NCBI GenBank assembly: GCA_934085825.1
Contig: CAKOHR010000007.1
Coordinates: 47,013 to 79,012 of the forward strand
DNA length: 32,000 bases
Source of the DNA: an uncultured Bacilli bacterium
GTDB lineage: Bacteria; Bacillota_I; Bacilli_A; RF39; UBA660
Direction of reading: 5' to 3'
Position numbers and translations under genes: made by a program. Position 1 is the stretch's first letter. Each line of letters starts with the position of its first letter. Below are positions 2,557 to 32,000 of this stretch, in pieces. Under the pieces are notes generated by a model. It worked only from the letters and a program-made list of their open reading frames with translations. It was not told the DNA's origin and made no database searches.

Positions 2557-3393
2557 ATGAAAAGAGAAAGAAGAATAACAGTTTTAAGTATAGGAGTTAA
2601 TTCTTTAGTGACTTTTGTGAAAATTTATGCAGGTTTAATATTTAATTCTTATACTTTAATGGTTAGTGGGTATAATACTTTATGTGATACAACTTTAGAT
2701 TTTATGGCATATAGCGGTTCTGTTTTTCGTGGAAGAAGAGCTAACAGAAAAGAACCTTTTGGATATGGTAGATGTCAAAATTATGCCACAATATTTGTAG
2801 GAATTGTAATTGTTCTTCTAGGAGTGTTTATAGTATTTAAGTCTTTCTTTTTAAATTATGTAGTTACTGATTTAAAAGTTTTGTTAGTTTTATTTGTTGT
2901 TGCTATTATTATGCTTGTTTATGGTAATTTTTTATTTAGAAATGCTAAAGAAATACAAAGTACAATGTTAATGGATATGGCTCATATTTCATTTTATGAT
3001 GGTGCTATTACTGCAGGAAATATATTTTTTATTTTCTTATCTAGTATAATTCCTGTATTTGATTTACTTGGCTGTTTGTTTATGGGCGCCGTCCTTATGT
3101 ATAAAGGAATTGGTATTATTATAAATAATTTTATATTATTAAATTGTCAAAATGATCAAAATAAAACTGTTATAAAAAAAATAGAAAGGATTATTAAGGA
3201 TGGCGAAGGTATAAGTTATTCAAATTGTAATCTTATTAATGTGAAAAAATATTATAAAGTAGTTATTGAAATATTGGTCGATGACGATGTGAGTTTAAAT
3301 GATTTAATTCTTTGGGAAGAATATTTAAGAGGCAATATCAAAGCTAGTAAAATTAGTGTGAAATTTGTTGAGTTTTTGGTGTATAAAAAATAA
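2557..3393 (+). CDS. Cation diffusion facilitator (CDF) family transporter-like membrane protein
   Basis: N-terminal pattern VNSLVTFVKIYAGLIFNSYTLMVSGYNTLCD...RKEPFGYGR, six hydrophobic segments and a C-terminal cytoplasmic domain. The canonical metal-ligand positions look partly substituted. Confidence 0.65.
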   Translation: MKRERRITVLSIGVNSLVTFVKIYAGLIFNSYTLMVSGYNTLCDTTLDFMAYSGSVFRGRRANRKEPFGYGRCQNYATIFVGIVIVLLGVFIVFKSFFLNYVVTDLKVLLVLFVVAIIMLVYGNFLFRNAKEIQSTMLMDMAHISFYDGAITAGNIFFIFLSSIIPVFDLLGCLFMGAVLMYKGIGIIINNFILLNCQNDQNKTVIKKIERIIKDGEGISYSNCNLINVKKYYKVVIEILVDDDVSLNDLILWEEYLRGNIKASKISVKFVEFLVYKK

Positions 3394-3505
3394 ATGTTAA
3401 GAGCGATGCTGATGGTGTCGTTTTTTTATATAATAGGAAAATGATATTATACTTGATTTTAACAAAAAAACTTGCTATTATTAATAATAGGAAAGAGGTA
3501 TGGAT

Positions 3506-5653
3506 ATGAAAAACAAAAAGGGTTTTACTTTGGTTGAACTTATTGTGGTTGTACTCATTACTGCGATTGTCGTGGGAATTGGTGTACCGGTATTTATAAA
3601 CATTCGTAAAAATGTTTTAAATAGTCAATTTGAAAATGTTAAAAGTAGAATTGAAGATGCAGCAGTAAAATATGCTAATGATACGCAGATAATTACTGTT
3701 TCAGTTGGTAAGTTAATTGAAGAAGGTTATTTGACAGCAGATGATCAAAATACAATTTACAATCCGGTTGATAATAAAAGCCTTAATTGTAAAATTGTTG
3801 AAGTTAGTTTAAATAATGGTGCTTATACTGCTAAATTAACTGATAATGGGGAACTAGAAGATGGTAGTTGTAGTACTTATGATGTTTCAGTTGCTAGTTT
3901 GATTAAAATATCATGTTATTCTGAAACAGATGATCAAAATGAAATTGCAAAATGTGAAGAAACTTTAAAAAATACTGAAAATAAATGGTATAGTGGTAGT
4001 GTTAAGTTAGGTTTGTCTGATAATATTTCAAAGAAAGTTACAGATTATAGATGGCAAGGAGCTACTGGAGAATATAGTGATAATGCAGAAATAATTGTTA
4101 CAACTGATACAATTAAATCTACTTCATTTAATTTATCACTAACTTATGAAGATGGTTCAAGTGAATCTTCAAGTACAATTTTACAAATTGATAATCAAAA
4201 ACCTGTTATAATTGATGTGGTAAAAGATGACAATTGGGCAGGAAGTAAAAAGAATGTTACAATTAATGCTAGTGATAATAATGGTAGTGGTATTGCTGGA
4301 TATTATGTTGGTACAAGTGAAACATGTGACGGAGAATATGTTTCAGATAATAAATTTGAATTAGAAAGTGGAAAATATTATACTTGTGTAAAGGATAATG
4401 CTGGTAATATTAGTGATGTAAAAGAATTTGAAATTGCTAATATTGATACATCAAAACCGGCACCAACAGCAGTTGGTAATAAGTATTATGTTACTTATTC
4501 TGAAACTAAGGGAATTACTTATTATAGTGAATTTTCAAGAAAAATAGTTTATGAAGATGCAGAAAGTGGTATTAGTGCAATTAAATACTGTTTTACTGAT
4601 AAAGATACTTGTGAACCAGATAAGAATGCTACTATTCATGTTGGAAATAGTAGTGAAGCAATTTTAAGTTATCCTGCAAATAAGAATGCTACTAGAGTTT
4701 GTACAAAAGCAGTTGATAATGTTAATAATGAATCTGAAGTATATTGTGATGATACATTCCTAGTTGATACTACTAAACCTACTGATATTAAAGCAGAACA
4801 TAATCAAAGTAATTCCAGTTATGTTAAGGTAAGTGGTTCTGATGCAGAAAGTGGCATTTATAAATATACTTGTAAATTTGGTACTAGTTCTTCTAATTTA
4901 AATCAAAGTGTAGAAGCTAAAGATGGTATATGTGATTTAGGTGCTATTTCTAGTGGTGTTACTTACTATGTAAAAGCTGAAGTATATAATAATGCTAATT
5001 TAGTTGCATCAAGTAGTGTTGTTAATTTTAAAGCACAAGTTAAAATGTCTGATGCATATACTGAAGTTTGTGGTAATGGAGAGTATTGTAATAGTCCTTT
5101 ATATATAAATTATAACGGAAATATATTTGTTGTTTATAGAAATAATAATGGATATAAAGCTATATATAATGGTGTATATGATCAATATAATTTCTTACAA
5201 TCTGGTTGTTGTAATAATGGACATTGTACATATAGTGGAGCACATTATACAAATGGTGTGTTAAGTACATATTTAAATGGTACATTTATAAGTGGTTTAC
5301 CTAATTATTCAAGTAAACTTAAAAATTCTACGTGGTATACTGGAACAAGTAATAATGTTACATCAAGAACTGCAACTGCTTATGTAGGACTTATGGATTA
5401 TAGTGAATATAATTCAACTAAGGGTAAGAATTGGATTTATGAAGGTGCTTCTGGTACTTATTTCTGGCTAATTACTCCAGCAACAACATCAGCTTACTTA
5501 GAAAATTATACAGTAAGATATTATAATGGTAATTATAATTTATCTTCACAGGTTGTTAATACTTCAAGTGGTGCTAGACCTGTAGTTGTGTTTAATGGAA
5601 GTTTAGTGTTTACTAGCGGTAAAGGAACTTTAGAAAGTCCTTATGTAGTGTAG
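3506..5653 (+). CDS. Large prepilin-type N-terminal cleavage/methylation domain protein with Ig-like repeats and a C-terminal domain paralogous to the DGR targets
   Basis: MKNKKGFTLVELIVVVLITAIVVGI is a class III (type IV pilin-like) signal. Repeated D/ESGI(A/Y) motifs suggest Ig-like modules. The C-terminus ...YVGLMDYSEY...FWLITPATTS...SSGARPVVVFNGSLVFTSGKGTLESPYVV parallels ...YIGLMYVSDYGY...EWTLTPDSS...GYGVRPVLYLDASVYKIDGEGTLDKPYII of target 1. ATG 3506 has AGAGG 7 nt upstream and is preferred over ATG 3500. Confidence 0.8.
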   Translation: MKNKKGFTLVELIVVVLITAIVVGIGVPVFINIRKNVLNSQFENVKSRIEDAAVKYANDTQIITVSVGKLIEEGYLTADDQNTIYNPVDNKSLNCKIVEVSLNNGAYTAKLTDNGELEDGSCSTYDVSVASLIKISCYSETDDQNEIAKCEETLKNTENKWYSGSVKLGLSDNISKKVTDYRWQGATGEYSDNAEIIVTTDTIKSTSFNLSLTYEDGSSESSSTILQIDNQKPVIIDVVKDDNWAGSKKNVTINASDNNGSGIAGYYVGTSETCDGEYVSDNKFELESGKYYTCVKDNAGNISDVKEFEIANIDTSKPAPTAVGNKYYVTYSETKGITYYSEFSRKIVYEDAESGISAIKYCFTDKDTCEPDKNATIHVGNSSEAILSYPANKNATRVCTKAVDNVNNESEVYCDDTFLVDTTKPTDIKAEHNQSNSSYVKVSGSDAESGIYKYTCKFGTSSSNLNQSVEAKDGICDLGAISSGVTYYVKAEVYNNANLVASSSVVNFKAQVKMSDAYTEVCGNGEYCNSPLYINYNGNIFVVYRNNNGYKAIYNGVYDQYNFLQSGCCNNGHCTYSGAHYTNGVLSTYLNGTFISGLPNYSSKLKNSTWYTGTSNNVTSRTATAYVGLMDYSEYNSTKGKNWIYEGASGTYFWLITPATTSAYLENYTVRYYNGNYNLSSQVVNTSSGARPVVVFNGSLVFTSGKGTLESPYVV

Positions 5654-11546: not shown

Positions 11547-11662
11547 AAAGTAAGGATAATGTATTAGAGGATATTAAATCTAAAGTTATAAAAAATGAAA
11601 ATACATTATCTATGATGCTAGAAACTGAAGCTGGTTCTGGAAATTATGATAAATTAAGTTAA
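11477..11662 (+). pseudogene. Truncated 5' remnant of a DGR-target-family surface protein gene (in-frame stop at 11546..11548)
   Basis: MKKKILILSAFILLLGVVIIYHN*SKDNVLEDIKSKVIKNENTLSMMLETEAGSGNYDKLS* aligns with the N-terminus of target 1 (MKRKKVIILSSFTIILLVFVIILYSS...SVSMMLETKAGSGNYEVS). Only ~60 codons remain. Confidence 0.65.
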
Positions 11663-11663
11663 A

Positions 11664-11688
11664 AGCATGGCACTGTCCATGTTTTTTT
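11664..11688 (+). terminator. Rho-independent terminator after the gene remnant
   Basis: AGCATGG / CCATGTT stem with loop CACTGT, followed by a T-run. Confidence 0.6.
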
Positions 11689-11724
11689 GGTATAATTAAA
11701 GAAGAATTGAGGTAAAAATATAAA

Positions 11725-13866
11725 ATGAAAGAAGAAGTAATAAGTAAAGTAAGTAAAAAGATTAATTTGAAAGAATATCAAATTAAGAATGTAATTGAGA
11801 TGTTAAGTGAAGGCGCAACCATACCATTTATGGCTCGTTATAGAAAAGAAGTAACTGGAAATTTAAATGAAGATGAACTTAGACTTATTGAAACAGAATA
11901 TAACTATATGGTTAATTTGGAAAACAGAAAAGAAGATGTTAAAAGATTAATTGATGAAAAGGGGATGCTTACTGATGAAATAGTTAAAGCTATTGATGAA
12001 GCAACTAAATTAAGTGAAGTTGAAGATATTTATACTCCATTTAAAGAAAAGAGAAAAACTAAAGGTACTGAAGCTATTAAACTTGGACTTGAACCTTTAG
12101 CTAAGATCATTATGAGTTTACCAAATAAAACTAGAGATGAAGTTGCTAAAGACTTTATTAATGAAAACGTTAAGACTGTTGATGAAGCCATTACTAACGC
12201 TGGATATATTATTGCTGATTGGATAAGTGATAAGCCTAAATATAGAAAAGCTATTAGAAATTATTATTGGTATAATGGTTTAGTTAAAGGTAAAATCAAA
12301 AAGAATGCTGTTGATGTAAATAAGACATATGAAATATATTATGATTTTGAATGTAAAATAACTAGTATTAAACCACATCAAGTACTTGCACTTGCACGTG
12401 CTGATAAGGAAAAGGTTGTTACATATTCACTTAGTTTGGATAAAGCTGGGGTTATTAAATACTTAGAAGAACAAGTTATTGGTGGTAAATCATCACCACT
12501 TGTAGATGATATGAAAGTATTTATTGAAGATGCTTGGAAAAGACTTTTGGAACCTTCTTTGGAAAGAGATATTAAAGCAGAACTTTATGATAAAGCAAGT
12601 GAATTTGGAATTAATGAATTTGGCAATAATCTAGAAAATTTACTTCTTACACCACCAATTAAGGAAAGTATAGTACTAGGATTTGATCCAGCTTTTAGAA
12701 CTGGTTGTAAGCTTGCTGTCTTAAGTGAAAATGGAGAAGTTTTAGAAATTGGGGTAATTTATCCACATGAGCCTAAAAAAGAAGTTGATATGGCTGAAAA
12801 AATAATGCTCGCTTTAATTCAAAAACATAATGTTAAGATAATTGCTATTGGTAATGGTACTGCTTCACGTGAAAGTGAAATGTTTGTAGCTAACCTTATA
12901 AAAAAATATAATCTTGATATAAAATATGTTATTGTTAGTGAAGCTGGTGCTAGTGTTTATTCAGCAAGTCCACTTGCTAAGAAAGAGTTTCCTGATTATT
13001 CTGTTGAACAAAGAAGTGCTGTTTCAATTGGCCGTAGACTTCAAGATGCTTTATCAGAACTTGTTAAGATTGACCCAAAGAGTATTGGGGTAGGTTTATA
13101 TCAACACGATTTAAAACAAAAAGAACTTGATGAGGAACTAGGATTTGTAGTTAGTAAAGTTGTTAATGAAGTTGGTGTTAATTTAAATAATGCTAGTGAT
13201 AGTATTTTAGGTTATGTATCTGGTTTAAATAAAAAAGTGATTGGTAAGATGCAAGAATATAAAAAGAAAAATGGCGGTTTTACATCACGTGAAGAATTAA
13301 AGAAAGTATCTGGTATGGATGATAAAATATTTGAACAATCGGCAGGATTCCTACGGATATTTGGAAATAATCCATTAGATAAAACTAATATACATCCAGA
13401 AGATTATGAAATTGTTAATAAAATATTAAGTGATAATAATATTGATGTAAAGCTAGTTGGAACTAAAGATATGGAAAGTAAACTAGCTAATATTAAAGAT
13501 GAAGCTATTACAAGTAAGTATAATATTAGTAACGAAAAATGGGAAAGCTTTAAAAATAACTTAGTAAGTGGTGTTATTGATCCCCGTGATGATGTTAAAC
13601 AAATGAGGCTTAGAAGTGATGTTTTGACAATAGATGATTTAGAGCTTGGTATGAGTTTAGAAGGTACAGTTAGAAATGTTACTGCATTTGGTGCTTTTAT
13701 TGATATTGGCCTGCATGATGATGGTTTAGTACATATTTCTAAAATGAGTAAATCATATGTTAAACATCCTAGTGAAATATTAAAAGTTGGAGATATTATT
13801 ACTGTTTATGTTATTAGTATTGATAAAGAAAAAGGAAGAGTTAATTTATCTTTAATTGAGGAGTAA
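11725..13866 (+). CDS. tex: Tex-like transcription accessory protein (S1 RNA-binding domain protein)
   Basis: N-terminal GATIPFMARYRKEVTGNLNEDELR, a YqgF/RuvC-like centre (GFDPAFRTGCKLAV), an HhH region and a C-terminal S1 domain (GTVRNVTAFGAFIDIGLHDDGLVHISKMS). Confidence 0.92.
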   Translation: MKEEVISKVSKKINLKEYQIKNVIEMLSEGATIPFMARYRKEVTGNLNEDELRLIETEYNYMVNLENRKEDVKRLIDEKGMLTDEIVKAIDEATKLSEVEDIYTPFKEKRKTKGTEAIKLGLEPLAKIIMSLPNKTRDEVAKDFINENVKTVDEAITNAGYIIADWISDKPKYRKAIRNYYWYNGLVKGKIKKNAVDVNKTYEIYYDFECKITSIKPHQVLALARADKEKVVTYSLSLDKAGVIKYLEEQVIGGKSSPLVDDMKVFIEDAWKRLLEPSLERDIKAELYDKASEFGINEFGNNLENLLLTPPIKESIVLGFDPAFRTGCKLAVLSENGEVLEIGVIYPHEPKKEVDMAEKIMLALIQKHNVKIIAIGNGTASRESEMFVANLIKKYNLDIKYVIVSEAGASVYSASPLAKKEFPDYSVEQRSAVSIGRRLQDALSELVKIDPKSIGVGLYQHDLKQKELDEELGFVVSKVVNEVGVNLNNASDSILGYVSGLNKKVIGKMQEYKKKNGGFTSREELKKVSGMDDKIFEQSAGFLRIFGNNPLDKTNIHPEDYEIVNKILSDNNIDVKLVGTKDMESKLANIKDEAITSKYNISNEKWESFKNNLVSGVIDPRDDVKQMRLRSDVLTIDDLELGMSLEGTVRNVTAFGAFIDIGLHDDGLVHISKMSKSYVKHPSEILKVGDIITVYVISIDKEKGRVNLSLIEE

Positions 13867-24680: not shown

Positions 24681-24710
24681 TTTCATATTTTTACGAAACT
24701 ATTTTTTCTT
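24674..24710. terminator. Bidirectional terminator between the SDR and XRE genes
   Basis: AAAATAGTTTC (24674..24684) / GAAACTATTTT (24695..24705), with A and T runs on both sides. Confidence 0.65.
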
Positions 24711-24963
24711 TTTCTTCTTTAGTAACTAAAGCATCTAATGGTACATCAAGTGCTTTTGTTATACTATATAATGTTTCTACAGAAAAATTATATGCAACTT
24801 TTTCGCTTTGGATTTGTTTTATAAAATCGTGTGATAAATCAACCATTTCTGCAAGCTGTGCAGATGTTATTCCTTTCTTTAGTCTGTATTTTCTGATATT
24901 CTTTCGGATTGTATTATAAATATCAGTATCAAAATCAATTTCTTTATTCCGCATAGTTTTCAC
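24691..24963 (-). CDS. XRE family helix-turn-helix transcriptional regulator
   Basis: YRLKKGITSAQLAEMVDLSHDFIKQIQS is a typical HTH_3. GGTGA RBS. It sits only 19 nt downstream of the transposase stop on the same strand. Confidence 0.8.
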   Translation of the reverse strand: MKTMRNKEIDFDTDIYNTIRKNIRKYRLKKGITSAQLAEMVDLSHDFIKQIQSEKVAYNFSVETLYSITKALDVPLDALVTKEEKEKIVS

Positions 24964-26440
24964 CTACATATATTGTAATATTTTACCAAATATCTATACA
25001 GGATGAAATTATAAAGCATGCTAATTCGGTAAAATATTCTTCAATATTTCTTCCTAAATGTTTTCTAATTCTAATTAAACTACGATTATATTTAGGTTTG
25101 GTTTTTTCTAATATAGCTAAAACAAATTTATGTATTATTTCTAAGTTTAATAGGGCATTCTTATTTGCTGTCTTATTTCTATCTTGATTAAAAGTATAAT
25201 CTAAATGCCAATGTATTTTATTTTCTACTGACCAATGACTTCTTATTATTTTACTAAATCTTTTTACATCTACATTTAAACTTGAGATATGATATCTTTC
25301 TTCTATAATTGTAATATCTTTTTCTATTTTTTTCTTTTTTGTATTTTTTCTTTCATTATTTATTTTAGCAATTATTGTTATTGTTTTTCTAACAAGACCA
25401 ATTGATTGTAAGCCTTCCCAAGAATGTGTTCTATCATACCATTCTATATCTGATGTTTGAAAGTATTCATATTTAATTATTTGCCCATGGCTTTTTTCAA
25501 AATATATTTCATATTCAGATTTTGAATTATCAGCAATTATTTCATCACATTTATCTTGATTAAAATATTCTTTTAAGTTATTTTTTAGATCTTCTTGATT
25601 TCCTTTTATTGAAAAAACATAATCAGCATGTGCATCTATAACCGCTTTTACATTTTCTTTTTGAGTATTTAAAACATTAACTGTTATTATTTTACCTTTA
25701 AAATTTTTATCTTTTAAATATTCTCTTATGGTTGGTATTTTATTTGTTTTACTATTTATTGGAATTGTATTTATATAATAATTTTTAGCAAAAGAATAAA
25801 CATTTAGACAATTTAATGGCTTAATTGCTTCATTAATAACTGTCTTTTTTCTTTTACTTCCATTGTTTAATCTTCCATCTAAATTCAATATATCATCTTC
25901 ATTTGATGTATTTAATGTAATAGCATCAAAAAATCTAGAAGAATTTAGTACTTCATGATCTACTAATCCGATTATTCTTTCATAAGAATCTGCTTTAGGC
26001 ACGCCACCAGTCATTTGTAAAAAGCTTTTAAACCATTTGTAGTTTTCTTCAACAAATTCTTGAATTTCTTCCCATGTGTCGTTATTGGCAAAAGAAGCAA
26101 TTATTACACACATAATAACATCCCATAATTTAAAACTTATCATATTTTTATTTCGAATATCTTTAATTTCTTTAAGTTTTTCTTTAAGATTTTTAAGTAA
26201 AGCAATATCAATATCTTGAAATTTTGTTATATTTAATACTTTTTTAATATATTTTATTTCCAATTTAGTTAATTCATCATATTTTTTCTTTGGTTTAGCC
26301 ATTAATATCGTTCCAATCTACTATAATAATCATATCATAGCATGGCGGTTTTCCCAAGAAAAAATTGTTTAAACCTAGATTTTATCTAAGTTTCCTTTAT
26401 GTATTTTTTTTAACTATAATTTTATCCTGCAAATTTATAT
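24964..26440 (-). mobile_element. ISAs1-family insertion sequence, boundaries not resolved
   Basis: Single transposase ORF. I could not identify terminal inverted repeats or target-site duplications by eye, so the coordinates are approximate. Confidence 0.4.
24983..26302 (-). CDS. ISAs1 family transposase
   Basis: The N-terminal DDE_Tnp_1-associated pattern is present (LWDVIMCVIIASFANNDTWEEIQEFVEENYKWFKSFLQMTGGVPKADSYERIIGLVD). The C-terminus IRSHWSVENKIHWHLDYTFNQDRNKTANKNALLNLEIIHKFVLAIL matches the ISAs1 IRxHWxIENxLHWxLDVxFxED signature. Confidence 0.85.
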   Translation of the reverse strand: MAKPKKKYDELTKLEIKYIKKVLNITKFQDIDIALLKNLKEKLKEIKDIRNKNMISFKLWDVIMCVIIASFANNDTWEEIQEFVEENYKWFKSFLQMTGGVPKADSYERIIGLVDHEVLNSSRFFDAITLNTSNEDDILNLDGRLNNGSKRKKTVINEAIKPLNCLNVYSFAKNYYINTIPINSKTNKIPTIREYLKDKNFKGKIITVNVLNTQKENVKAVIDAHADYVFSIKGNQEDLKNNLKEYFNQDKCDEIIADNSKSEYEIYFEKSHGQIIKYEYFQTSDIEWYDRTHSWEGLQSIGLVRKTITIIAKINNERKNTKKKKIEKDITIIEERYHISSLNVDVKRFSKIIRSHWSVENKIHWHLDYTFNQDRNKTANKNALLNLEIIHKFVLAILEKTKPKYNRSLIRIRKHLGRNIEEYFTELACFIISSCIDIW

Positions 26441-26457
26441 AGCCTAGTAGTGGCATT

Positions 26458-26468
26458 TGTGCTATAAT
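26458..26468 (+). promoter_or_regulatory. Extended -10 promoter element upstream of DGR target 1
   Basis: TGTGCTATAAT (TGn + TATAAT at 26463..26468) with a poor -35. AGGAAAGGAG RBS lies further downstream. Confidence 0.4.
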
Positions 26469-26498
26469 GTTAACATAGGAAAGGAGTAAAAAACAACA

Positions 26499-28301
26499 AT
26501 GAAGAGAAAAAAAGTAATTATTTTAAGCAGTTTTACTATAATTTTACTTGTTTTTGTTATTATTTTATATAGTAGTAAATATAAAAAACAAGTTTATAGT
26601 GAAAATGAAAATAATGAAATAAGGGCTGGAGCATCAGTAAGTATGATGCTTGAAACAAAAGCTGGTTCAGGTAACTATGAGGTATCAACAAGTAGTGAGT
26701 GGCCAACAGATGGTTATATGTTTAATGCTAACTTATCAAAATGTGAAAATGGTGGAACTCTTTCATGGAATGATGAAACAAAATCAGTTGTACTTACTAC
26801 AGGTGTAAGTGACAAGTGTTATGTATATTTTGATATTGTTCCTCCAGATGTTAGTATAGCTGCCAGTAATATACCAACAACTTATGGAAAATTAGGAACA
26901 ATAAGCTGTTCAAATAGTAGTGCAACTTACAACCAACAGTATAATAGAATTGAAGTATCAAATATTAATACTAAATATGAAAATTGCACATTAAATTATA
27001 CTGACAGTACATCAAAAGTAAATTTAGCGTCATATATCACAGGCTTAGCAGGAACAGCTCAAGGGACAGGACAAGTAGTAAATGAAACAGCAACAAGTGA
27101 TAACTCAACTTTTACAGCTGGTGCTAAATTGGAACAAAGTGGTTATACAGTTTCAAGTAATGATGCAACTTATCCATTTGAATGGGATAATACAAATAAA
27201 ACATGGACAAGTACAAATCATACTGATAGTGCTACAGCAACATTTATATTTAATGTAGCTGCAGCAGGTAATTATCAAGTTTGCTATAAGCAATCAAGTG
27301 AAGAAAGCTATGATTACACAATATTTTACAAAGATAATACACAAATAAAATCTTTAAAAGGTATATCTAATAGTGATTTTGCATGTTATTATTTAGGAAA
27401 TTTAACTACTTCAAATGCTATAAAAGTTACTTATCAAAAAGATCGTAGTACATCAGTTGGTTCAGATAATGTAGTATTTTATTTACAAAGTGGTACTTAT
27501 AACGAAAATATACAAACTGTTAGTGCAGGTACAAGATATGAAGGAAAAAATCCAAATAACTATGTGTGGTTCAATAATGAATATTGGAGAATAATCGGAG
27601 TGTTTGATAGTGGCTCTCATGGACAAAGTGGGAAAAACTTGGTAAAAATAATAAGAGCGGATGTGTTAGATGGACTTGCATGGCATAAGTCAGATACAAA
27701 TGATTGGACAGCGGCGAGTTTGAATAAACTACTTAATGGCGCTTACTATAATGCTCAAGATGGAACCGGCTCAGGCTATTGCTATGGAAGTGGTTCAGCT
27801 ACGGCTAATTGTGATTATACTAAAAAAGGAATACAAGCTGGTTATAGAAGTATGATAGCAAATGTAACATGGTATTTAGGTGGATATTCAAGTGATAGTG
27901 CAACAACCGAAAGTTTTTATGGATACGAAAGAGGAACAACAGTGTATAGTGGAAGACCAACAAGTACAACAGGATATATAGGACTAATGTATGTAAGTGA
28001 TTATGGATATAGTGTGTTATCAAGTAGTTGTGCAAGAACAACAAATTTAAGTTCTTATAGTAGTAGCGTATGTGCAGGGCAAAGTTGGCTGTATGGAAAA
28101 GGAGATGAATGGACACTTACGCCTGATTCTTCATACAGCGGCAGTGTGTTCCGTCTTGCCTGCATCGGCGGCGTGTACAGCGACAGCGTGAGCAACGCGT
28201 ATACTGGGTATGGCGTCCGTCCAGTCTTGTATCTAGACGCTTCTGTGTATAAAATAGATGGAGAAGGAACCTTAGATAAGCCATATATCATAGGGATGTG
28301 A
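26499..28301 (+). CDS. DGR target protein 1: signal-anchored surface protein with a C-terminal variable domain (DUF1566/C-type-lectin-like by inference)
   Basis: The N-terminal anchor is MKRKKVIILSSFTIILLVFVIILY. The C-terminal EWTLTPDSSYSGSVFRLACIGGVYSDSVSNAYTGYGVRPVLYLD contains the VR. The ORF is a paralog of the ORF at 30699 and of the C-terminus of 3506..5653. Confidence 0.85.
   Translation: MKRKKVIILSSFTIILLVFVIILYSSKYKKQVYSENENNEIRAGASVSMMLETKAGSGNYEVSTSSEWPTDGYMFNANLSKCENGGTLSWNDETKSVVLTTGVSDKCYVYFDIVPPDVSIAASNIPTTYGKLGTISCSNSSATYNQQYNRIEVSNINTKYENCTLNYTDSTSKVNLASYITGLAGTAQGTGQVVNETATSDNSTFTAGAKLEQSGYTVSSNDATYPFEWDNTNKTWTSTNHTDSATATFIFNVAAAGNYQVCYKQSSEESYDYTIFYKDNTQIKSLKGISNSDFACYYLGNLTTSNAIKVTYQKDRSTSVGSDNVVFYLQSGTYNENIQTVSAGTRYEGKNPNNYVWFNNEYWRIIGVFDSGSHGQSGKNLVKIIRADVLDGLAWHKSDTNDWTAASLNKLLNGAYYNAQDGTGSGYCYGSGSATANCDYTKKGIQAGYRSMIANVTWYLGGYSSDSATTESFYGYERGTTVYSGRPTSTTGYIGLMYVSDYGYSVLSSSCARTTNLSSYSSSVCAGQSWLYGKGDEWTLTPDSSYSGSVFRLACIGGVYSDSVSNAYTGYGVRPVLYLDASVYKIDGEGTLDKPYIIGM
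27044..28022 (+). repeat. Direct repeat copy A (~980 bp) within target 1
   Basis: About 90% identity by eye to 31023..32000, including runs of over 90 identical nt (for example tgatgcaacttatccatttgaatgggataatacaaataaaacatggacaagtacaaatcatactgatagtgctacagcaacatttatatt). Confidence 0.85.
28121..28215 (+). repeat. DGR variable region VR1
   Basis: A ~95-nt, ~60% GC island in an AT-rich gene. It aligns to the TR at 30216..30301 with differences concentrated at TR adenines (details in findings). Confidence 0.75.
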
Positions 28302-28314
28302 GAACTTTGGTTTA

Positions 28315-28344
28315 GCGTGGCTGGCGGGAGTATCCGCCTCACGC
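28315..28344 (+). promoter_or_regulatory. GC-rich stem-loop downstream of VR1 (candidate DGR target-recognition hairpin)
   Basis: GCGTG-GCT-GGCGG-GAGTAT-CCGCC-T-CACGC is a two-tier stem with no T-run after it. It begins 14 nt after the target 1 stop. Confidence 0.55.
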
Positions 28345-28400
28345 CGCGAAAATTAGAAACATGAAGAAAGGAATGTGAAAATATATGTTTAAACAAATGT

Positions 28401-28808
28401 TTGTACCAGAGGGTGCCGGAAGAACCCCAAAAATATGTAATCATTAATCAATCAAGTGGTAAATTTTTTGAAGTTTATGACTATGATGCTTTTATATTTA
28501 ATTATCTTTTTGATTATAAAATAGTACAAGCAGGAAAAACATACAAATGTGGTTTTCCTGATAGTTCATTAGTAAAAATAACTGATAAACTAAATGATTT
28601 AAAAATATCTTATCAAGTTATATATCGAGGAAAAAATCCACATGTAAAAGATTATAAAAAAATAAATCAATATTCTAAATATAAATTGATAGCTTTACAA
28701 AAAATCGACATAAAAGAGAGAATTGATACTTTAATAGAAAAAATTAAATTATTAGATAACGAAAAAGCTAAAGAAATCATGGAGAAAATTGAAAAATGTT
28801 TAGAATAA
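28401..28808 (+). CDS. MutS-domain-I-like small protein (MSL-type DGR accessory ORF)
   Basis: YVIINQSSGKFFEVYDYDAFIFNYLFDYKI...KCGFPDSSLVKITDKLNDLKISYQVI parallels MutS domain I ([29 protein letters not shown]...[25 protein letters not shown], E. coli sequence from memory). This includes the Phe-x-Glu motif. There is a coiled-coil-like K/E-rich tail. The start is uncertain: TTG 28401 or GTG 28413, with no good RBS for either. Confidence 0.65.
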   Translation: MYQRVPEEPQKYVIINQSSGKFFEVYDYDAFIFNYLFDYKIVQAGKTYKCGFPDSSLVKITDKLNDLKISYQVIYRGKNPHVKDYKKINQYSKYKLIALQKIDIKERIDTLIEKIKLLDNEKAKEIMEKIEKCLE

Positions 28809-29155
28809 ATAATAATGACTTTAAAATACTTCAAAAATACAAAATGTTTCTAATGAATTTAGACAATTCATTAAAAAATATACCAAGAAAAGATATGTAT
28901 TTTAAAGATAGAATTAAAAATATATCACTAGATGTATTAAAAAATATTTTATTATGTTTTTATGATACTAGTTCTGTAAGTTTATACAGAACTAGTATCA
29001 AAGCTAATATTGCTTTACTTGATTTTATGTTAGAAAGATTGTTGTTAAAAAAATATATAAGCGAGAAAAACTTATATAAACTTGCAACCGATTTAGTGGA
29101 AATAAATAAAATGGTTACTGGATGGCTTAATAATCATGAAAGTAAATTTATTTGA
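28796..29155 (+). CDS. avd: Accessory variability determinant (Avd), four-helix-bundle family
   Basis: 119 aa, directly upstream of and overlapping the RT. NSLKNIPRKDMYFKDRI resembles the IPRKHG region of Bordetella phage bAvd (from memory). Predicted to be helical throughout. Confidence 0.75.
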   Translation: MFRINNNDFKILQKYKMFLMNLDNSLKNIPRKDMYFKDRIKNISLDVLKNILLCFYDTSSVSLYRTSIKANIALLDFMLERLLLKKYISEKNLYKLATDLVEINKMVTGWLNNHESKFI

Positions 29156-30197
29156 TTTATTAGACATTTATGAAAGTGAAGTAAAGAAAAATGTTAGAAA
29201 CAAAAAGAAAATATTGGATTTTGAAAAACATAAAATGGAATATCTTGTTGATATAAAAAGAGTATTAGAAAATAATCTATATGATGGAGGAAAGTATAAT
29301 ATATTTTTAGTATTTGAACCTAAGATAAGAGTAATAATGGCCCAAGGTATATATGACAAAATAATAAATCATTATGTAACTAGGCACATTTTAATGCCAA
29401 AGCTAGAAAAATATCTAGAAAGTAGAAATTGTGCTACTAGAAAAGAAATGGGAACAAGTTATGCAATTAAACTATTAAAAAAAGATATTGAAAGTTTCAA
29501 AAAATATAATAAATTCTATTTTTTGAAACTAGATATAAGTAAATATTTTTACAATTTAGACCATGAATTAATTATTTCTATTGTTAAATACGATTTAAAC
29601 CCTGATGAATTAAATCTTGTTAAAATAATACTTGAAAGTACTAATAAAGAGTACATAAATAAAAAGATAAAGTATTTAGAAAATAAATATAATGTTGAAT
29701 TACCAAAGTATGAACATGGTAAGGGTTTAGCAATAGGTAATTTATCTAGTCAATTTCTAGCAATACTGTATTTAAACAAATTACAGCATTATATTACTAA
29801 TAATTTACATATTAAATTTATTAATTATATGGATGATTATATTTTAATTCATAATTCTAAGGAATATCTAAAAAGTTCTTTAGAATTGATTGAAAATATA
29901 ATTAATAATGAATATAAATTAAAATTAAATAGTAAGAAAACAATTATTAGTAATTGTAATCAAGGAATATCATTCCTAGGTTATACATTTAAAGTTAAAA
30001 ATAATAAAACAATTGTAAAACTAAATACTAACACTAAAAAGAATATTAGAAAAGGTATAAAAAGAGCAAATTATTTATATAAAAATAATTTAATAAAATT
30101 TAATCAATACTTTTCAAGTATTGAATGTTTTAAAAATAATTATATTTTTGTTAATAAAGATAAAGTAAAACACTTTATTGATAGATATGATGGGTAA
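29136..30197 (+). CDS. DGR-type reverse transcriptase
   Basis: RT motifs are present: RVIMAQGIYDKIINHYV, NCATRKEMGTSYA, FLKLDISKYFYNLDH, GLAIGNLSSQFLAILYLN (the DGR-specific SQ motif 4), NYMDDYILIH (YMDD), LKLNSKKT and ISFLGYTF. The protein is 353 aa with no maturase or endonuclease domains. Confidence 0.9.
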   Translation: MKVNLFDLLDIYESEVKKNVRNKKKILDFEKHKMEYLVDIKRVLENNLYDGGKYNIFLVFEPKIRVIMAQGIYDKIINHYVTRHILMPKLEKYLESRNCATRKEMGTSYAIKLLKKDIESFKKYNKFYFLKLDISKYFYNLDHELIISIVKYDLNPDELNLVKIILESTNKEYINKKIKYLENKYNVELPKYEHGKGLAIGNLSSQFLAILYLNKLQHYITNNLHIKFINYMDDYILIHNSKEYLKSSLELIENIINNEYKLKLNSKKTIISNCNQGISFLGYTFKVKNNKTIVKLNTNTKKNIRKGIKRANYLYKNNLIKFNQYFSSIECFKNNYIFVNKDKVKHFIDRYDG

Positions 30198-30215
30198 TTC
30201 TTAAGTAAAAAAGAT

Positions 30216-30301
30216 GCCTAATTCTTCGAACAGCAACAATGTGTTCAATGAAAGCAACAACGGTAATACAAGCAACAACAACGCGAATAATGGGAATGGC
30301 G
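30216..30301 (+). repeat. DGR template repeat (TR)
   Basis: Non-coding 86-nt tract starting 18 nt after the RT stop. It has 35 A of 86 nt by hand count. In the VR reading frame 14 of 27 codon-equivalents are AAC or AAT. The flanks match VR1. Confidence 0.8.
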
Positions 30302-30407
30302 GCTTCTGAGCTCATTATGTTAAATGTTTATTATTCTAAGGAATGTAAAAGGGCATAAAGAACATGAATTATCCAAAGGATAAAATCCTTAAAAAGAAAA
30401 TAGATAC

Positions 30408-30429
30408 GGAAAAGTCCAAGGACTTTTCC
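30408..30429 (+). other. Perfect 10-bp hairpin in the TR-downstream non-coding region
   Basis: GGAAAAGTCC-AA-GGACTTTTCC with no T-run after it. It is preceded by a second small stem AAGGAT-AAA-ATCCTT (30376..30390). Confidence 0.5.
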
Positions 30430-30456
30430 TATGGGTCTATTATATTAATTTGATTT

Positions 30457-30720
30457 ATGAAAGAAAGATATTTAATAATTAAAAAGTTATATAAAGATTA
30501 TATAATTTTAATAAAAGATAAAAATAATAATTACATTTCTTTTGAAGAAGATGCTAAAATAGTAAAATATTTTGGTATTAAAGAAGTAAATACAATTTAT
30601 CTAAATAATTTAGAAATAGAAGAAATAAATTGTTATAAAAATAATAAATATAATGAATTATATTTGAAAGTAAAATTAATAGAATTGTTGGAGGTCTTAT
30701 GCAAAAGAGAATTAAAATAG
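30457..30720 (+). CDS. Second MutS-domain-I-like small ORF (N-terminal subdomain only)
   Basis: ERYLIIKKLYKDYIILIKDKNNNYISFEEDAKIVKYFGI parallels MutS [39 protein letters not shown]. The Phe-x-Glu motif is not conserved and no clear RBS is present. It overlaps the target 2 start. Confidence 0.45.
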   Translation: MKERYLIIKKLYKDYIILIKDKNNNYISFEEDAKIVKYFGIKEVNTIYLNNLEIEEINCYKNNKYNELYLKVKLIELLEVLCKRELK

Positions 30721-32000
30721 TAAGTGTAGGAATTATATTGATAGTATTATTCATTAGTATTATTGCTCTAAATAATAATACTAATAATAAACATACATTT
30801 AAAAAAGATGGAATATTATATGCTTTATCTTTAGATGGAAAAAGTATAACATCTTTTCCATCTAAAGGATTATATAAAGCAAATGTATCATGTGATGGTG
30901 CAGATGGAAAATGGTTATATGATGATTGGAAATTATCAATCGAAAATATAACTGGTGATGTATCATGTGATATTAAGTTTGAAACAATTACAAAAACATA
31001 CTTTAATGATTATATTACAAAATTAGCAGGAACAACACAAGGAACAGGGAAAGTGATAAATGAAACTGCATCAAAAGATAATTCAACATTTACAGCAGGT
31101 GCAAAATTGGAACAAAGTGGTTATACAGTTTCAAGTAATGATGCAACTTATCCATTTGAATGGGATAATACAAATAAAACATGGACAAGTACAAATCATA
31201 CTGATAGTGCTACAGCAACATTTATATTCAATGTATCTGCAGCAGGTAATTATCAAGTTTGCTATAAACAATCAAGTGAAAAAAACTTTGATTACACAAT
31301 ATTTTACAAAGATAATACACAAATAAAATCTTTAAAAGGTATATCTAATACTGATTTTGAGTGTTATTATTTAGGAAGTTTAACTACTTCAAATGCGATA
31401 AAGGTTACTTATCGAAAAGATAGTAGTGGCTCAAATGGCTCTGATAACGTAGTATTTTATCTACAAAGTGTTACTTATAACGAAAATATACAAACTGTTA
31501 CTGATACAAGATATGAAGGAAAAAATCCAAATAACTATGTGTGGTTCAATAATGAATACTGGAGAATAATCGGAGTGTTTGATAGTAGTTCTCATGGACA
31601 AAGTGGAAAAAACTTGGTAAAAATAATTCGTGCAGATGTGTTAGATGGACTAGCTTGGGATAAGTCATATACAAATGATTGGACAGCGGCGAGTTTGAAT
31701 AAACTACTTAATGGAGCTTACTATAATGCCCAAGATGGAACAAGTTCAGGCTATTGTTACGGATATAGCACAACAGCAACAGCTAATTGTGACTATACAA
31801 AAAAAGGGATACAAGCTGGCTATAGAAGTATGATAGCAAATGTAACATGGTATCTAGGTGGATATTCAAGTAGTGATGCAACCACTGAAGCTTTTTATGG
31901 ATATGAAAGAGGAACAACAGTATCTAGTGGAAGACCAACAACAACTACAGGATATATAGGACTAATGTATCCAAGTGATTATGGATATAGTGTGTTATCA
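30699..32000 (+). CDS. DGR target protein 2 (paralog of target 1), partial; continues beyond window end
   Basis: Not in the ORF track (no stop in window). ATG 30699 has GGAGG 5 nt upstream, and the frame is open for 434 codons to position 32000. It begins MQKRIKIVSVGIILIVLFISIIAL. From ~31023 onward it is near-identical at DNA level to 27044..28022. Its VR would lie about 100-200 nt past the window end. Confidence 0.85.
   Translation, partial: MQKRIKIVSVGIILIVLFISIIALNNNTNNKHTFKKDGILYALSLDGKSITSFPSKGLYKANVSCDGADGKWLYDDWKLSIENITGDVSCDIKFETITKTYFNDYITKLAGTTQGTGKVINETASKDNSTFTAGAKLEQSGYTVSSNDATYPFEWDNTNKTWTSTNHTDSATATFIFNVSAAGNYQVCYKQSSEKNFDYTIFYKDNTQIKSLKGISNTDFECYYLGSLTTSNAIKVTYRKDSSGSNGSDNVVFYLQSVTYNENIQTVTDTRYEGKNPNNYVWFNNEYWRIIGVFDSSSHGQSGKNLVKIIRADVLDGLAWDKSYTNDWTAASLNKLLNGAYYNAQDGTSSGYCYGYSTTATANCDYTKKGIQAGYRSMIANVTWYLGGYSSSDATTEAFYGYERGTTVSSGRPTTTTGYIGLMYPSDYGYSVLS
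31023..32000 (+). repeat. Direct repeat copy B within target 2 (truncated by window end)
   Basis: See copy A. Position 32000 corresponds to 28022. Confidence 0.85.

What the first reader, a model, noticed from the sequence alone, without database searches (positions are those of the whole stretch)
26499..32000. Complete DGR with unusual architecture: target1(VR)-MSL-Avd-RT-TR-MSL-target2
Several components are seen directly. (i) A 353-aa RT carries LKLDISKYF, AIGNLSSQFLAILYLN and YMDD. The xGNxxSQ form of motif 4 is the hallmark that separates DGR RTs from group II intron and retron RTs. (ii) An overlapping upstream 119-aa ORF has Avd size and position. (iii) An 86-nt non-coding, adenine-rich tract (35 of 86 nt are A; 14 of 27 codon-equivalents are AAC or AAT) starts 18 nt after the RT stop. 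(iv) A related ~95-nt GC-rich segment sits near the 3' end of the upstream 600-aa surface protein gene. (v) A second paralogous target gene lies downstream. The genes are translationally coupled, with overlaps of 13, 20 and 22 nt. DGRs as a class are known. What is unusual here is the combination: a TR placed after the RT, two MutS-like small ORFs, two direct-repeat targets flanking the core, and targets from a family that also has a prepilin-type member. This is the strongest candidate for a new targeted-hypermutation system in the window.
Basis: partly seen in the sequence, partly recalled or inferred. Interest (0 to 1): 0.9.

Follow-up and report, generated by a model that had tools for sequence, protein, structure and literature searches.

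The report
Gut-bacterial DGR cassette, apparently dormant
This is a genuine diversity-generating retroelement (a reverse-transcriptase system that rewrites the tip of two surface proteins) in an uncultured gut bacterium. Every part belongs to already described DGR types, and in this strain the system appears to have stopped rewriting its targets.

Summary
The locus holds target1 with VR1, a MutS-like ORF (MSL1), Avd, a DGR-type RT, an 86-nt adenine-rich TR, a second small ORF (MSL2), and target2 (VR2 lies just beyond the window).

TR/VR mismatches fall overwhelmingly on TR adenines (21 of 35 A versus 3 of 51 non-A, p=4e-8). The RT is closest to the Bordetella phage DGR RT. The same cassette order recurs in most of 17 related MAG loci, many with gap-free, A-only TR/VR pairs. 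It is a real DGR.

It is not a new system. TR after RT, MSL accessory genes, two targets, and 3n indels at AAC repeats are all catalogued (Wu et al. 2018). The target domain is a DUF6273-like C-type-lectin fold already known as a DGR target.

This copy looks quiescent:
- VR1 is 9 nt and VR2 6 nt longer than the TR, with 3-6 non-A mismatches.
- VR1 fits a TR allele from another strain better than its own.
- VR1, VR2 and TR are identical in strains from two cohorts that differ at up to 75 sites in the cassette. One of those strains has a broken RT.
- The conserved MSL1 start codon is out of frame here.

Verdict: new member of a known kind, interest about 0.3.

The parts
26430..26498 (+). Conserved upstream region of target1: extended -10-like TGCTATAAT and Shine-Dalgarno GGAAAGGAG
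   Evidence: About 70 nt are nearly identical to the region upstream of target1 in L029 and L037. Promoter function is inferred, not shown. The generic promoter scan was not enriched over shuffles.
26499..28301 (+). Target gene 1, 600 aa: N-terminal membrane anchor, an extra ~147-aa domain, and a C-terminal C-type-lectin-like (DUF6273-like) domain carrying VR1
   Evidence: ORF. AlphaFold model of the last 263 aa: pLDDT 87, pTM 0.89. Foldseek best PDB match is the Thomasclavelia ramosa IgAse entry, E 1.7e-7. That enzyme's N-terminal domain is described as a C-type lectin-like domain (PMC12237041). Phage DUF6273 proteins match at E down to 5e-8. Pfam DUF6273 gives weak hits in 11 of 16 family members.
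28121..28215 (+). VR1 (variable repeat), 95 nt, 59% G+C, encoding ...PDSSYSGSVFRLACIGGVYSDSVSNAYTGYG
   Evidence: Aligned to the TR: 21 mismatches at TR adenines, 3 at other bases, 9 gap positions. VR1 fits the L031-type TR allele better than its own TR. It is identical in all sampled strains of this lineage.
28216..28240 (+). IMH-like segment: G/C-rich 3' boundary where VR (GTCCGTCCAGTCTTG) and TR (GCTTCTGAGCTCAT) stop matching
   Evidence: Read directly from the sequence. The same boundary is seen at VR2 and in relatives. IMH function is inferred by analogy with BPP-1.
28316..28348 (.). GC-rich inverted repeat 15 nt after the target1 stop codon (inner stem GGCGG/CCGCC, outer stem CGTGGC/GCCGCG), not followed by a T-run
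   Evidence: A strong hairpin follows every target gene in all 26 target ends examined, with different stem sequences in different lineages. This matches the hairpin/cruciform needed for efficient homing in BPP-1 (PMC3240598). Here it lies about 100 nt from the VR end, against 4-34 bp in the phage DGRs surveyed there.
28401..28808 (+). MSL1, MutS-domain-I-like accessory ORF (135 aa from TTG). The conserved ATG at 28385 is out of frame in this window
   Evidence: Pfam MutS_I scores 21.9 bits against a gathering score of 20.6. The family profile's best PDB hit is the MSH6 mismatch-binding domain, E 0.022, with GKFYELY aligned. Frameshift relative to L019 and L033.
28796..29155 (+). Avd-like accessory protein, 119 aa, pI 9.6
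   Evidence: NCBIfam DivGenRetAVD: E 9e-10, 38.8 bits, below its cut-off of 80, but covering positions 2-103 of 104. Pfam bAvd: E 2.5e-6, below gathering. pI. No match to solved Avd structures by sequence.
29136..30197 (+). DGR-type reverse transcriptase, 353 aa
   Evidence: RVT_1 at E 1.8e-16. Best solved-structure relative is 8ub7_A (328-aa 'Reverse transcriptase', which from memory is the Bordetella phage bRT) at E 5e-18, against group II LtrA at 4e-9 and retron RTs at 2.5e-5. IGNLSSQ aligns with bRT IGSLTSQ, and YMDD aligns with YMDD.
30216..30301 (+). TR (template repeat), 86 nt, 35 A. 33 of the 35 A sit at codon positions 1-2 of the VR frame. Contains (AAC)n runs
   Evidence: Same length as the TR of L002. 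The (AAC)n tract is length-polymorphic between related strains.
30302..30456 (+). Conserved structured RNA 3' of the TR (Sp-like): hairpin 30376-30390, plus stem 30400-30405/30435-30440 enclosing hairpin 30408-30429
   Evidence: In a 13-lineage alignment, 16 pairs are 93% paired, against 36-54% when the partners are slid. 14 pairs show compensatory changes, and no shuffle (0 of 500) reached the observed covariation score. No Rfam family matches. A role as the priming/spacer RNA is inferred by analogy with BPP-1.
30457..30720 (+). MSL2: conserved 87-aa ORF overlapping the target2 start by 22 nt. Possibly a truncated MutS-domain-I relative
   Evidence: Present in 16 loci with RT identity down to 47%. 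hhalign against the MSL1 family: probability 85%, E 6e-6. Pfam MutS_I scores only 14.7 bits, below gathering.
30699..32000 (+). Target gene 2 (525 aa in full; cut by the window end). VR2 lies at window-equivalent about 32099-32190
   Evidence: Full gene is read in L001 at 11564-13141. VR2 against TR: 20-21 A mismatches, 4-6 non-A, 6 gap positions.

Best explanation
The locus is a chromosomal diversity-generating retroelement of the Avd + MSL type in an uncultured low-G+C gut Bacilli bacterium.

Inferred mechanism, by analogy with the Bordetella phage BPP-1 DGR:
- The TR and the structured RNA just 3' of it are transcribed.
- The RT, with Avd, copies the TR into cDNA and misincorporates opposite template adenines.
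- The cDNA replaces the VR at the 3' end of two paralogous genes, guided by the G/C-rich IMH-like boundary and the GC-rich hairpin after each gene.
- This recodes about 14 Asn-type codons on the ligand-binding face of a C-type-lectin-like (DUF6273-like) domain. That domain is displayed on membrane-anchored surface proteins.
- MSL1, and perhaps MSL2, are MutS-domain-I-like accessory proteins that probably handle the mismatched cDNA:target intermediate. This last point is pure inference.

Shown here:
- the identity of the parts;
- the adenine-specific TR/VR relation;
- conservation of the cassette across a clade;
- extensive A-position VR diversity in sister lineages.

Second claim, about 65% likely: in this particular lineage the element is quiescent or decaying. 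Both VRs were last written from older TR alleles of different length and have not been rewritten since the sampled strains diverged.
For: DGR identity:
- RT motifs, and bRT as the best solved relative.
- Full-length Avd family matches.
- MSL1 reaches the Pfam MutS_I gathering score.
- A-biased TR/VR mismatches, p=4e-8 and 1e-5, with 33 of 35 TR adenines at codon positions 1-2.
- The A-masked pattern is unique to TR and VR1 in the window.
- Most of the 17 related loci share the cassette. Gap-free pairs with few or no non-A mismatches include L002 (21 A / 1 non-A), L012 (15/0 and 13/0), L015 (13/0) and L008 (22/0).
- Among 3529 target homologues, proteins with the same backbone carry entirely different VRs.
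- Hairpins follow all 26 target ends examined.
- The RNA 3' of the TR shows covariation.
- The target has a C-type-lectin-like fold.

Quiescence:
- VR1 is TR+9 nt and VR2 is TR+6 nt, with 3-6 non-A mismatches.
- VR1 scores 112 against the L031-type TR versus 86 against its own TR.
- The three target1 and five target2 protein variants in the database differ only outside the VR.
- L045, L044, L043 and L041, from two cohorts, have identical VR1. Those that reach VR2 and the TR match there too. This holds despite 38-75 differences elsewhere.
- L044 has a frameshifted RT and a frameshifted MSL2.
- The MSL1 start codon is frameshifted.
- Close relatives show decay: split RT in L003 and L010, an Avd nonsense codon in L019-L028, and an MSL1 nonsense codon in L031, L032 and L035.
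Against: - RT, Avd, TR adenines, the IMH-like boundary and the hairpins are all intact in the window, so the element could still fire occasionally.
- Wu et al. interpret 3n indels at AAC repeats and non-A changes as products of homing (RT slippage). On that reading, non-colinearity alone does not prove inactivity.
- Only consensus assemblies were available. Low-frequency VR variants within a sample would be invisible.
- The sampled strains come from only two cohorts (Hadza and 'MERR22').
- Avd scores are below the curated cut-offs, and no Avd structure was predicted.
- I could not see which part of the IgAse entry the Foldseek alignment covers. The lectin-like N-terminal domain is assumed from its size.
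Confidence: 0.8

Rival explanations
1. The DGR is fully active, and the length differences and non-A changes between TR and VRs are made during homing. The mechanism would be template slippage of the RT on AAC repeats plus lower fidelity, as proposed for 'noncanonical mutagenesis'.
For: - Wu et al. report 3n indels next to AAC in 7% of DGRs and up to 11 non-A changes in one target.
- The indels here lie in or next to the AAC-rich part of the TR.
- VR length varies from 27 to 34 codons among close homologues.
- RT and Avd are intact.
Against: - The same VR occurs with TRs of (AAC)5 and (AAC)6 in different strains (L029 versus L030-L032). At least part of the length mismatch therefore arises in the TR DNA, not during reverse transcription.
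- VR1 is better explained by another TR allele.
- The VRs are invariant across diverged strains, including one with a broken RT.
Confidence: 0.2
2. The element is not a DGR. On this view the RT belongs to a group II intron, retron or defence RT, and the TR/VR similarity is a chance or paralogous repeat.
For: - NCBIfam's only RT hit is the group II maturase model, at 81 bits against a cut-off of 300.
- PADLOC shows generic RT and DRT-type similarities.
Against: - Rfam finds no intron or retron RNA in 26000-32000.
- bRT is the best solved relative by nine orders of magnitude, and the IGxxxSQ motif is present.
- The adenine bias is significant at p=4e-8.
- Avd and MSL neighbours are present.
- Relatives have perfect A-only TR/VR pairs.
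Confidence: 0.02
3. The oddities are artefacts of metagenome assembly across the long near-identical 3' halves of the two target genes. The oddities in question are VR/TR mismatch, identical VR1 and VR2 in some relatives, and polymorphic TR with fixed VRs. They would reflect chimeric contigs or collapsed repeats.
For: - Several contigs of this lineage end inside the cassette (L041-L043).
- VR1 equals VR2 exactly in L004, L007, L011 and L029-L036.
- The central avd-RT-TR block differs while both targets are identical in L037-L040.
Against: - For the window itself, three independent assemblies (window, L001, L045) agree on TR, VR1 and VR2. A fourth from another cohort (L044) agrees as well.
- VR1 and VR2 differ here, and the two targets are only about 90% identical at the DNA level, so collapse is unlikely.
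Confidence: 0.1

Closest known systems
Bordetella phage BPP-1 DGR (mtd-avd-TR-brt)
   Same: - RT of the same clade, best solved-structure match.
- An Avd-like partner.
- Adenine-specific TR-to-VR information flow.
- VR at the 3' end of a C-type-lectin-fold protein.
- A G/C-rich IMH-like boundary and a GC-rich inverted repeat downstream.
- A structured RNA directly 3' of the TR.
   Different: - Chromosomal, not phage.
- The TR follows the RT instead of preceding it.
- Two targets flank the core.
- Extra MutS-like ORFs are present.
- The hairpin lies about 100 nt from the VR end, not 4 bp.
- The targets are membrane-anchored cell-surface proteins rather than tail fibres.
MSL-containing DGRs (architecture D) and avd-RT-TR DGRs (architecture B2) of Wu et al. 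2018, including the Legionella DGR
   Same: - A small MutS_I-like accessory gene together with avd and without HRDC.
- TR downstream of the RT.
- Multiple adjacent targets.
- 3n indels at AAC repeats and several non-A changes, which that survey finds typical of non-phage lineage-4-like DGRs.
   Different: - A second, shorter MSL-like ORF is translationally coupled to target2. I could not check it against their supplementary figures, which are not held as text.
- MSL1 pI is 9.0, against their mean of 7.2.
- The target domain is DUF6273-like rather than DUF1566-like.
DGR targets with DUF6273 / C-type-lectin-like domains in human-gut phages (tentaclins and nd4/nd12 target2; PMC10743442)
   Different: - Here the domain sits at the C-terminus of bacterial membrane-anchored proteins.
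- A related domain sits on a prepilin-type protein in the same window.
- The cassette is cellular, not viral.

Membership tests
Diversity-generating retroelement (DGR) | RT of the DGR clade, with motif 4 (I/L)GxxxSQ and YxDD | tested here: met
   AIGNLSSQ and YMDD are present. Best PDB relative is 8ub7_A (bRT, identity from memory) at E 5e-18, against group II LtrA at 4e-9. Both motifs align. No formal phylogeny was run.
Diversity-generating retroelement (DGR) | TR/VR repeat pair whose differences fall at TR adenines | tested here: met
   VR1: 21 of 35 A positions mismatched, against 3 of 51 non-A (p=4e-8). VR2: 20 of 35 against 6 of 51 (p=1e-5).
Diversity-generating retroelement (DGR) | TR and VR of equal length (canonical colinearity) | tested here: not met
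   VR1 is 9 nt and VR2 6 nt longer than the TR. This is not disqualifying: 7% of curated DGRs show it. Relatives L002, L004, L008, L012, L014 and L015 are colinear.
Diversity-generating retroelement (DGR) | VR in a variation-tolerant fold (C-type lectin or Ig-like) at the end of a target gene | tested here: met
   Model pLDDT is 87. Matches are the IgAse entry with a lectin-like N-terminal domain, and phage DUF6273 proteins. The VR occupies residues ~205-236 of the 263-aa model, 25 codons before the stop.
Diversity-generating retroelement (DGR) | IMH/IMH* boundary and GC-rich inverted repeat downstream of the VR | tested here: met
   VR and TR diverge after ...ATGGCG into G/C-rich GTCCGTCC versus GCTTCTGAG. 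A hairpin lies at 28316-28348 and after every target in the family. Function was not tested, and the distance from the VR is larger than in phage DGRs.
Diversity-generating retroelement (DGR) | Avd accessory protein (basic four-helix bundle) | tested here: inconclusive
   There are full-length matches to DivGenRetAVD (38.8 bits, cut-off 80) and to bAvd (28.3 bits, cut-off 40). pI is 9.6. No solved Avd structure was hit by sequence. No structure was predicted.
Diversity-generating retroelement (DGR) | Evidence of ongoing diversification: VR differs between close strains at A positions | tested here: not met
   VR1 and VR2 are invariant in all sampled strains of this lineage. The feature is met in sister lineages. 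Read-level data were not available.
MSL accessory gene family (Wu et al. 2018) | Small protein (112-283 aa) with MutS domain I similarity, next to avd, with no HRDC | tested here: met
   MSL1 is 135 aa. MutS_I scores 21.9 bits, at or above the gathering score of 20.6. The profile's best PDB hit is the MSH6 mismatch-binding domain. The gene lies next to avd. Caveat: the start codon is frameshifted in this window.
MSL accessory gene family (Wu et al. 2018) | The same criteria applied to the second ORF (MSL2, 87 aa) | tested here: inconclusive
   It is below the published size range. MutS_I scores 14.7 bits, below 20.6. hhalign against the MSL1 family gives 85% probability, E 6e-6, and it lacks the central GFP segment. 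The PDB profile search gave nothing relevant.
Group II intron / retron RT | Associated structured RNA (intron domains or msr/msd) and family-level RT score | tested here: not met
   Rfam gives no match in 26000-32000 at E up to 1. The group_II_RT_mat model scores 81 bits against a cut-off of 300.

The most novel reading that the evidence does not exclude
The clade carries a two-part MutS-domain-I accessory module. MSL1 sits upstream of avd. A truncated MSL2 usually sits just after the TR and its structured RNA, and where a second target is present it overlaps that gene's start. Expression of the module may be switchable. Relatives have a 6-9 G homopolymer at the MSL1 start, and this window has a frameshift at the same spot.

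On this reading, MSL1 phase variation gates homing. That would explain why VR alleles stay frozen across hosts while the TR keeps changing, both in (AAC)n length and through recombination of TR alleles. The template, not only the target, would then be an evolving part of the system.
Probability: 0.12. Interest if true: 0.6.

Novelty: new member of a known kind. Interest (0 to 1): 0.3.

Why it matters
The locus adds a well-resolved example of a cellular DGR in a poorly known group of small-genome gut Bacilli. It diversifies a DUF6273-type lectin-like domain on surface proteins, and the same domain also sits on a pilin-like protein nearby.

The more useful lesson is comparative. VR alleles of this clade are stable across people and continents. 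Meanwhile DGR core genes decay or recombine, and the TR's AAC tract changes length at the DNA level.

That bears on how often gut DGRs actually fire. It also bears on whether TR/VR length differences should be read as RT slippage.

None of this changes the picture of what a DGR is.

Tried and rejected
- Rfam scan of the locus found nothing.
- Sequence searches of MSL1, Avd, MSL2 and the target domain against PDB gave no usable hits. The exceptions were the MSL1 profile hitting MSH6 (E 0.022) and the RT hitting bRT.
- The first AlphaFold run, on a shallow alignment of 81-88% identical homologues, failed (pLDDT 35). Adding divergent rumen homologues fixed it.
- A homologue search with the pilin C-terminal domain returned nothing.
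- The promoter/terminator scan was not informative: 47 sites found against 44 expected.
- PADLOC gave only generic RT hits.
- IMG/VR has no relative of the RT.
- I looked for a hypothetical older TR allele matching the central block of VR2. JGI metagenomes had 0 hits.
- Contigs carrying target1 variants P0002 and P0003 end before the TR, so they informed only on VR1.
- I considered that VR1 = VR2 in some relatives reflects one cDNA used twice. I cannot separate that from gene conversion or assembly collapse.

Full report
**1. What is in the sequence**

The window is about 25% G+C. From 26499 to the window end, seven features lie on the + strand:
- a 600-aa gene (26499-28301);
- a 135-aa ORF (28401-28808);
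- a 119-aa ORF (28796-29155);
- a 353-aa RT (29136-30197);
- an 86-nt non-coding adenine-rich tract (30216-30301);
- an 87-aa ORF (30457-30720);
- a paralogue of the first gene (30699 onward).

Overlaps are 13, 20 and 22 nt. The tract has 35 A in 86 nt and starts 18 nt after the RT stop.

The source contig was recovered from a Hadza gut metagenome (L001, 367 kb; 6 SNPs in 12.9 kb of overlap). It shows target2 is 525 aa, with its own VR just beyond the window end.

**2. Is it a DGR? Yes**

- Under a neutral scoring scheme, the tract and VR1 differ at 21 of 35 template adenines but at only 3 of 51 other bases (p=4e-8). For VR2 the counts are 20 of 35 versus 6 of 51 (p=1e-5). Of the 35 adenines, 33 sit at codon positions 1-2 of the target frame.
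- An adenine-masked 31-nt pattern finds only TR and VR1 in the window, with none expected by chance.
- The RT's best solved relative is 8ub7_A at E 5e-18, a 328-aa reverse transcriptase that I recognise as the Bordetella phage bRT. Group II LtrA scores 4e-9 and retron RTs 2.5e-5. IGNLSSQ and YMDD align with the bRT motifs.
- The 119-aa protein matches the Avd models over their full length. The scores are below curated cut-offs (NCBIfam 38.8 bits, Pfam 28.3 bits). Its pI is 9.6.
- The 135-aa protein reaches the Pfam gathering score for MutS domain I. A profile of its family hits the MSH6 mismatch-binding domain first in the PDB.
- After ...ATGGCG, the VR continues GTCCGTCC... and the TR continues GCTTCTGAG.... 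This is an IMH/IMH*-like boundary.
- A GC-rich hairpin without a T-run follows the target1 stop (28316-28348). All 26 target ends examined in the family have such a hairpin, with lineage-specific stems. This matches the element needed for efficient homing in BPP-1 (PMC3240598).

**3. The family**

A scan of one genome per species found 17 loci, all in uncultured Bacilli (one labelled Erysipelotrichaceae) from human gut, rumen and rabbit metagenomes. RT identity runs from 47 to 94%.

Most of the loci that span the whole cassette show the same order: target-MSL-Avd-RT-TR-small ORF-target. In L008, L013 and L018 the TR instead lies between target1 and the accessory genes.

Many pairs are gap-free with few or no non-A mismatches (A / non-A counts):
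- L002: 21 / 1
- L012: 15/0 and 13/0
- L014: 17/1 and 14/1
- L015: 13/0
- L008: 22/0

The target C-terminal domain has 3529 database homologues. Proteins with the same backbone carry unrelated VRs of 27-34 codons. The clade's DGR has therefore clearly been active. No relative of the RT is present in IMG/VR, and the neighbours are housekeeping genes, so the element is chromosomal.

**4. Further anatomy**

- *Structured RNA.* The 155 nt between the TR and the 87-aa ORF form a conserved structured RNA. In 13 lineages, 16 pairs are 93% paired, against 36-54% when partners are slid. Fourteen pairs show compensatory changes. The window helices are 30376-30390, and 30400-30405/30435-30440 enclosing 30408-30429. 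By position this corresponds to the spacer RNA 3' of the TR that primes cDNA synthesis in BPP-1. That role is inferred, not shown.
- *MSL2.* The 87-aa ORF is conserved in 16 loci. It resembles the MSL1 family only weakly (hhalign 85%, E 6e-6).
- *Target domain.* It was modelled with confidence after divergent homologues were added (pLDDT 87). Its best PDB match is the Thomasclavelia ramosa IgA peptidase entry (E 1.7e-7). That enzyme's N-terminal domain is described as C-type-lectin-like (PMC12237041). Its best viral matches are gut-phage DUF6273 proteins. That domain has already been reported as a lectin-like DGR target (PMC10743442).
- *Pilin relative.* A prepilin-type protein in the same window (3500-5653) carries a related C-terminal domain (27-28% identity). 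It has no TR match.

**5. Is it unusual? No**

- avd-RT-TR as architecture B2;
- MSL genes as a named accessory class, in 16 DGRs and always with avd (architecture D);
- two targets in 13% of DGRs;
- 3n indels next to AAC repeats in 7%;
- up to 11 non-A differences in one target.

The only piece I could not match to the literature is the second, truncated MSL-like ORF coupled to target2. Their supplementary figures are not available as text.

**6. State of this copy**

- *Length and mismatches.* The TR has the family-standard length, the same as L002. VR1 is 9 nt and VR2 6 nt longer, with 3-6 non-A mismatches.
- *Wrong template.* VR1 is explained better by the TR allele of another strain. The L031 type scores 112, with 3 gap positions, against 86 for the window's own TR. 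VR2 fits its own TR best but still imperfectly.
- *TR length polymorphism.* In relatives the TR (AAC)n tract is length-polymorphic at the DNA level. n is 4, 5 or 6, and the same VR is found with both n=5 and n=6. Length mismatches therefore need not come from RT slippage.
- *Invariant VRs.* Within the window's own lineage, the three target1 and five target2 protein variants differ only outside the VR.
- *Independent contigs.* L045 has identical TR, VR1 and VR2. L044, from a different cohort, differs at 75 sites clustered in avd and the RT. It has a frameshifted RT and a frameshifted MSL2, yet its TR, VR1 and VR2 are identical to the window. L041 and L043 differ at 38-56 sites, none of them in VR1.
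- *MSL1 start.* The ATG that starts MSL1 in relatives (28385, with an upstream AAAGGA) is out of frame here because of a 2-nt deletion.
- *Decay in sister lineages.* L003 and L010 have a split RT. L019-L028 have an Avd nonsense codon, about 10 non-A mismatches, and VRs identical in ten contigs from several cohorts. L031, L032 and L035 have an MSL1 nonsense codon.

I conclude, at about 65%, that neither VR has been rewritten since before these strains diverged. Read-level data could overturn this.

**7. Unexplained**

In the closest sister loci (L037-L040), both targets and the intergenic region are identical. The other parts differ as follows:

| Part | Differences |
|---|---|
| avd | 3-10 of 340 |
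| RT | 1-15 of 1062 |
| Sp-like RNA | 0-14 of ~149 |
| TR | 0-12 of 92 |

One TR allele carries a 1-nt deletion. The lowest value in each range is the L038-L039 pair, whose TR and Sp-like RNA are identical. This is the reverse of textbook DGR polarity. Clustered differences in L044 and shared TR pieces between lineages (L030 and L038) point to recombination. Chimeric metagenome contigs across the long target repeats cannot be excluded. The same caveat applies to the exact VR1 = VR2 identity seen in L004, L007, L011 and L029-L036.

**8. Verdict**

This is a real DGR, a new member of a known kind, and probably dormant in this strain. Interest is about 0.3. The comparative details are worth a note but do not amount to a new system. 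Those details are the frozen VR alleles, the unstable TR microsatellite, a possibly phase-variable MSL1, and the Sp-like RNA.

Noticed in passing
window 3500-5653 (+): A 717-aa protein with a prepilin N-terminal methylation motif (PF07963). Its last ~115 aa are homologous to the DGR target domain (27-28% identity, E 2e-7) and end ...GARPVVVF..GKGTLESPYVV. No TR-like match, so it is apparently not a DGR target.
   Followed up: partly
window 28376-28447; L029-L036 around 3180-3215: The conserved ATG of MSL1 (28385) is out of frame with the MSL1 body in the window, through a 2-nt deletion relative to L019. At the same spot, relatives carry a G homopolymer of 6-9 G whose length differs between strains and sets the reading frame. 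This looks like a phase-variation tract.
   Followed up: partly
window 30302-30456: A conserved structured RNA lies directly 3' of the TR, with strong covariation across 13 lineages and no Rfam family. It is probably the counterpart of the BPP-1 spacer RNA.
   Followed up: yes
L029-L036 TR (about 5003-5100 in each locus): The TR (AAC)n tract is a length-polymorphic microsatellite (n=4, 5 or 6). Strains sharing the same VR carry different n, so TR/VR length differences can arise in the TR DNA rather than by RT slippage.
   Followed up: partly
L037-L040 (closest sister loci), TR just after the RT stop: Both targets (including the VRs) are identical between contigs, but the TR differs at up to 12 of 92 positions, and one allele has a 1-nt deletion. 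avd, RT and the Sp-like RNA are also polymorphic. This reverses normal DGR polarity. Recombination or chimeric assembly may explain it.
   Followed up: partly
L004, L007, L011, L029-L036: VR1 and VR2 of the two targets are exactly identical within each locus. Possible causes are gene conversion between the paralogues, one cDNA used twice, or assembly collapse.
   Followed up: no
window 24691-26302 (-): An IS-type transposase (DDE_Tnp_1_assoc, 24983-26302) sits between an XRE-family HTH gene (24691-24963) and the conserved target1 upstream region. Sister loci have the HTH gene but no IS there. Many of those with enough downstream flank have parA/parB just after target2, where this lineage has a GH25 gene.
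   Followed up: partly
window 27033-27480 and 31011-31460: Both targets of this lineage (and target1 of L037/L038) carry an extra ~147-aa segment between the N-terminal region and the lectin-like domain. The 453- and 378-aa versions in most relatives lack it. No Pfam match.
   Followed up: no
window 27894-27994: A cluster of 16 substitutions between strains makes target1 of the MERR22-cohort strains look like target2 over this stretch. This suggests gene conversion between the two paralogues.
   Followed up: no
L044 (window-equivalent 29477 and 30551): A strain of the same lineage from another cohort has a 1-nt deletion that splits the RT (129 + 224 aa) and a 1-nt insertion in MSL2. Its TR, VR1 and VR2 are identical to the window.
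   Followed up: yes
L008 4743-5288; L013 4894-5015; L018 1255-1403: In three divergent relatives the TR lies between target1 and the accessory genes. In L008 it is again followed by an MSL2-like ORF, so TR-RNA-MSL2 may be a module.
   Followed up: partly
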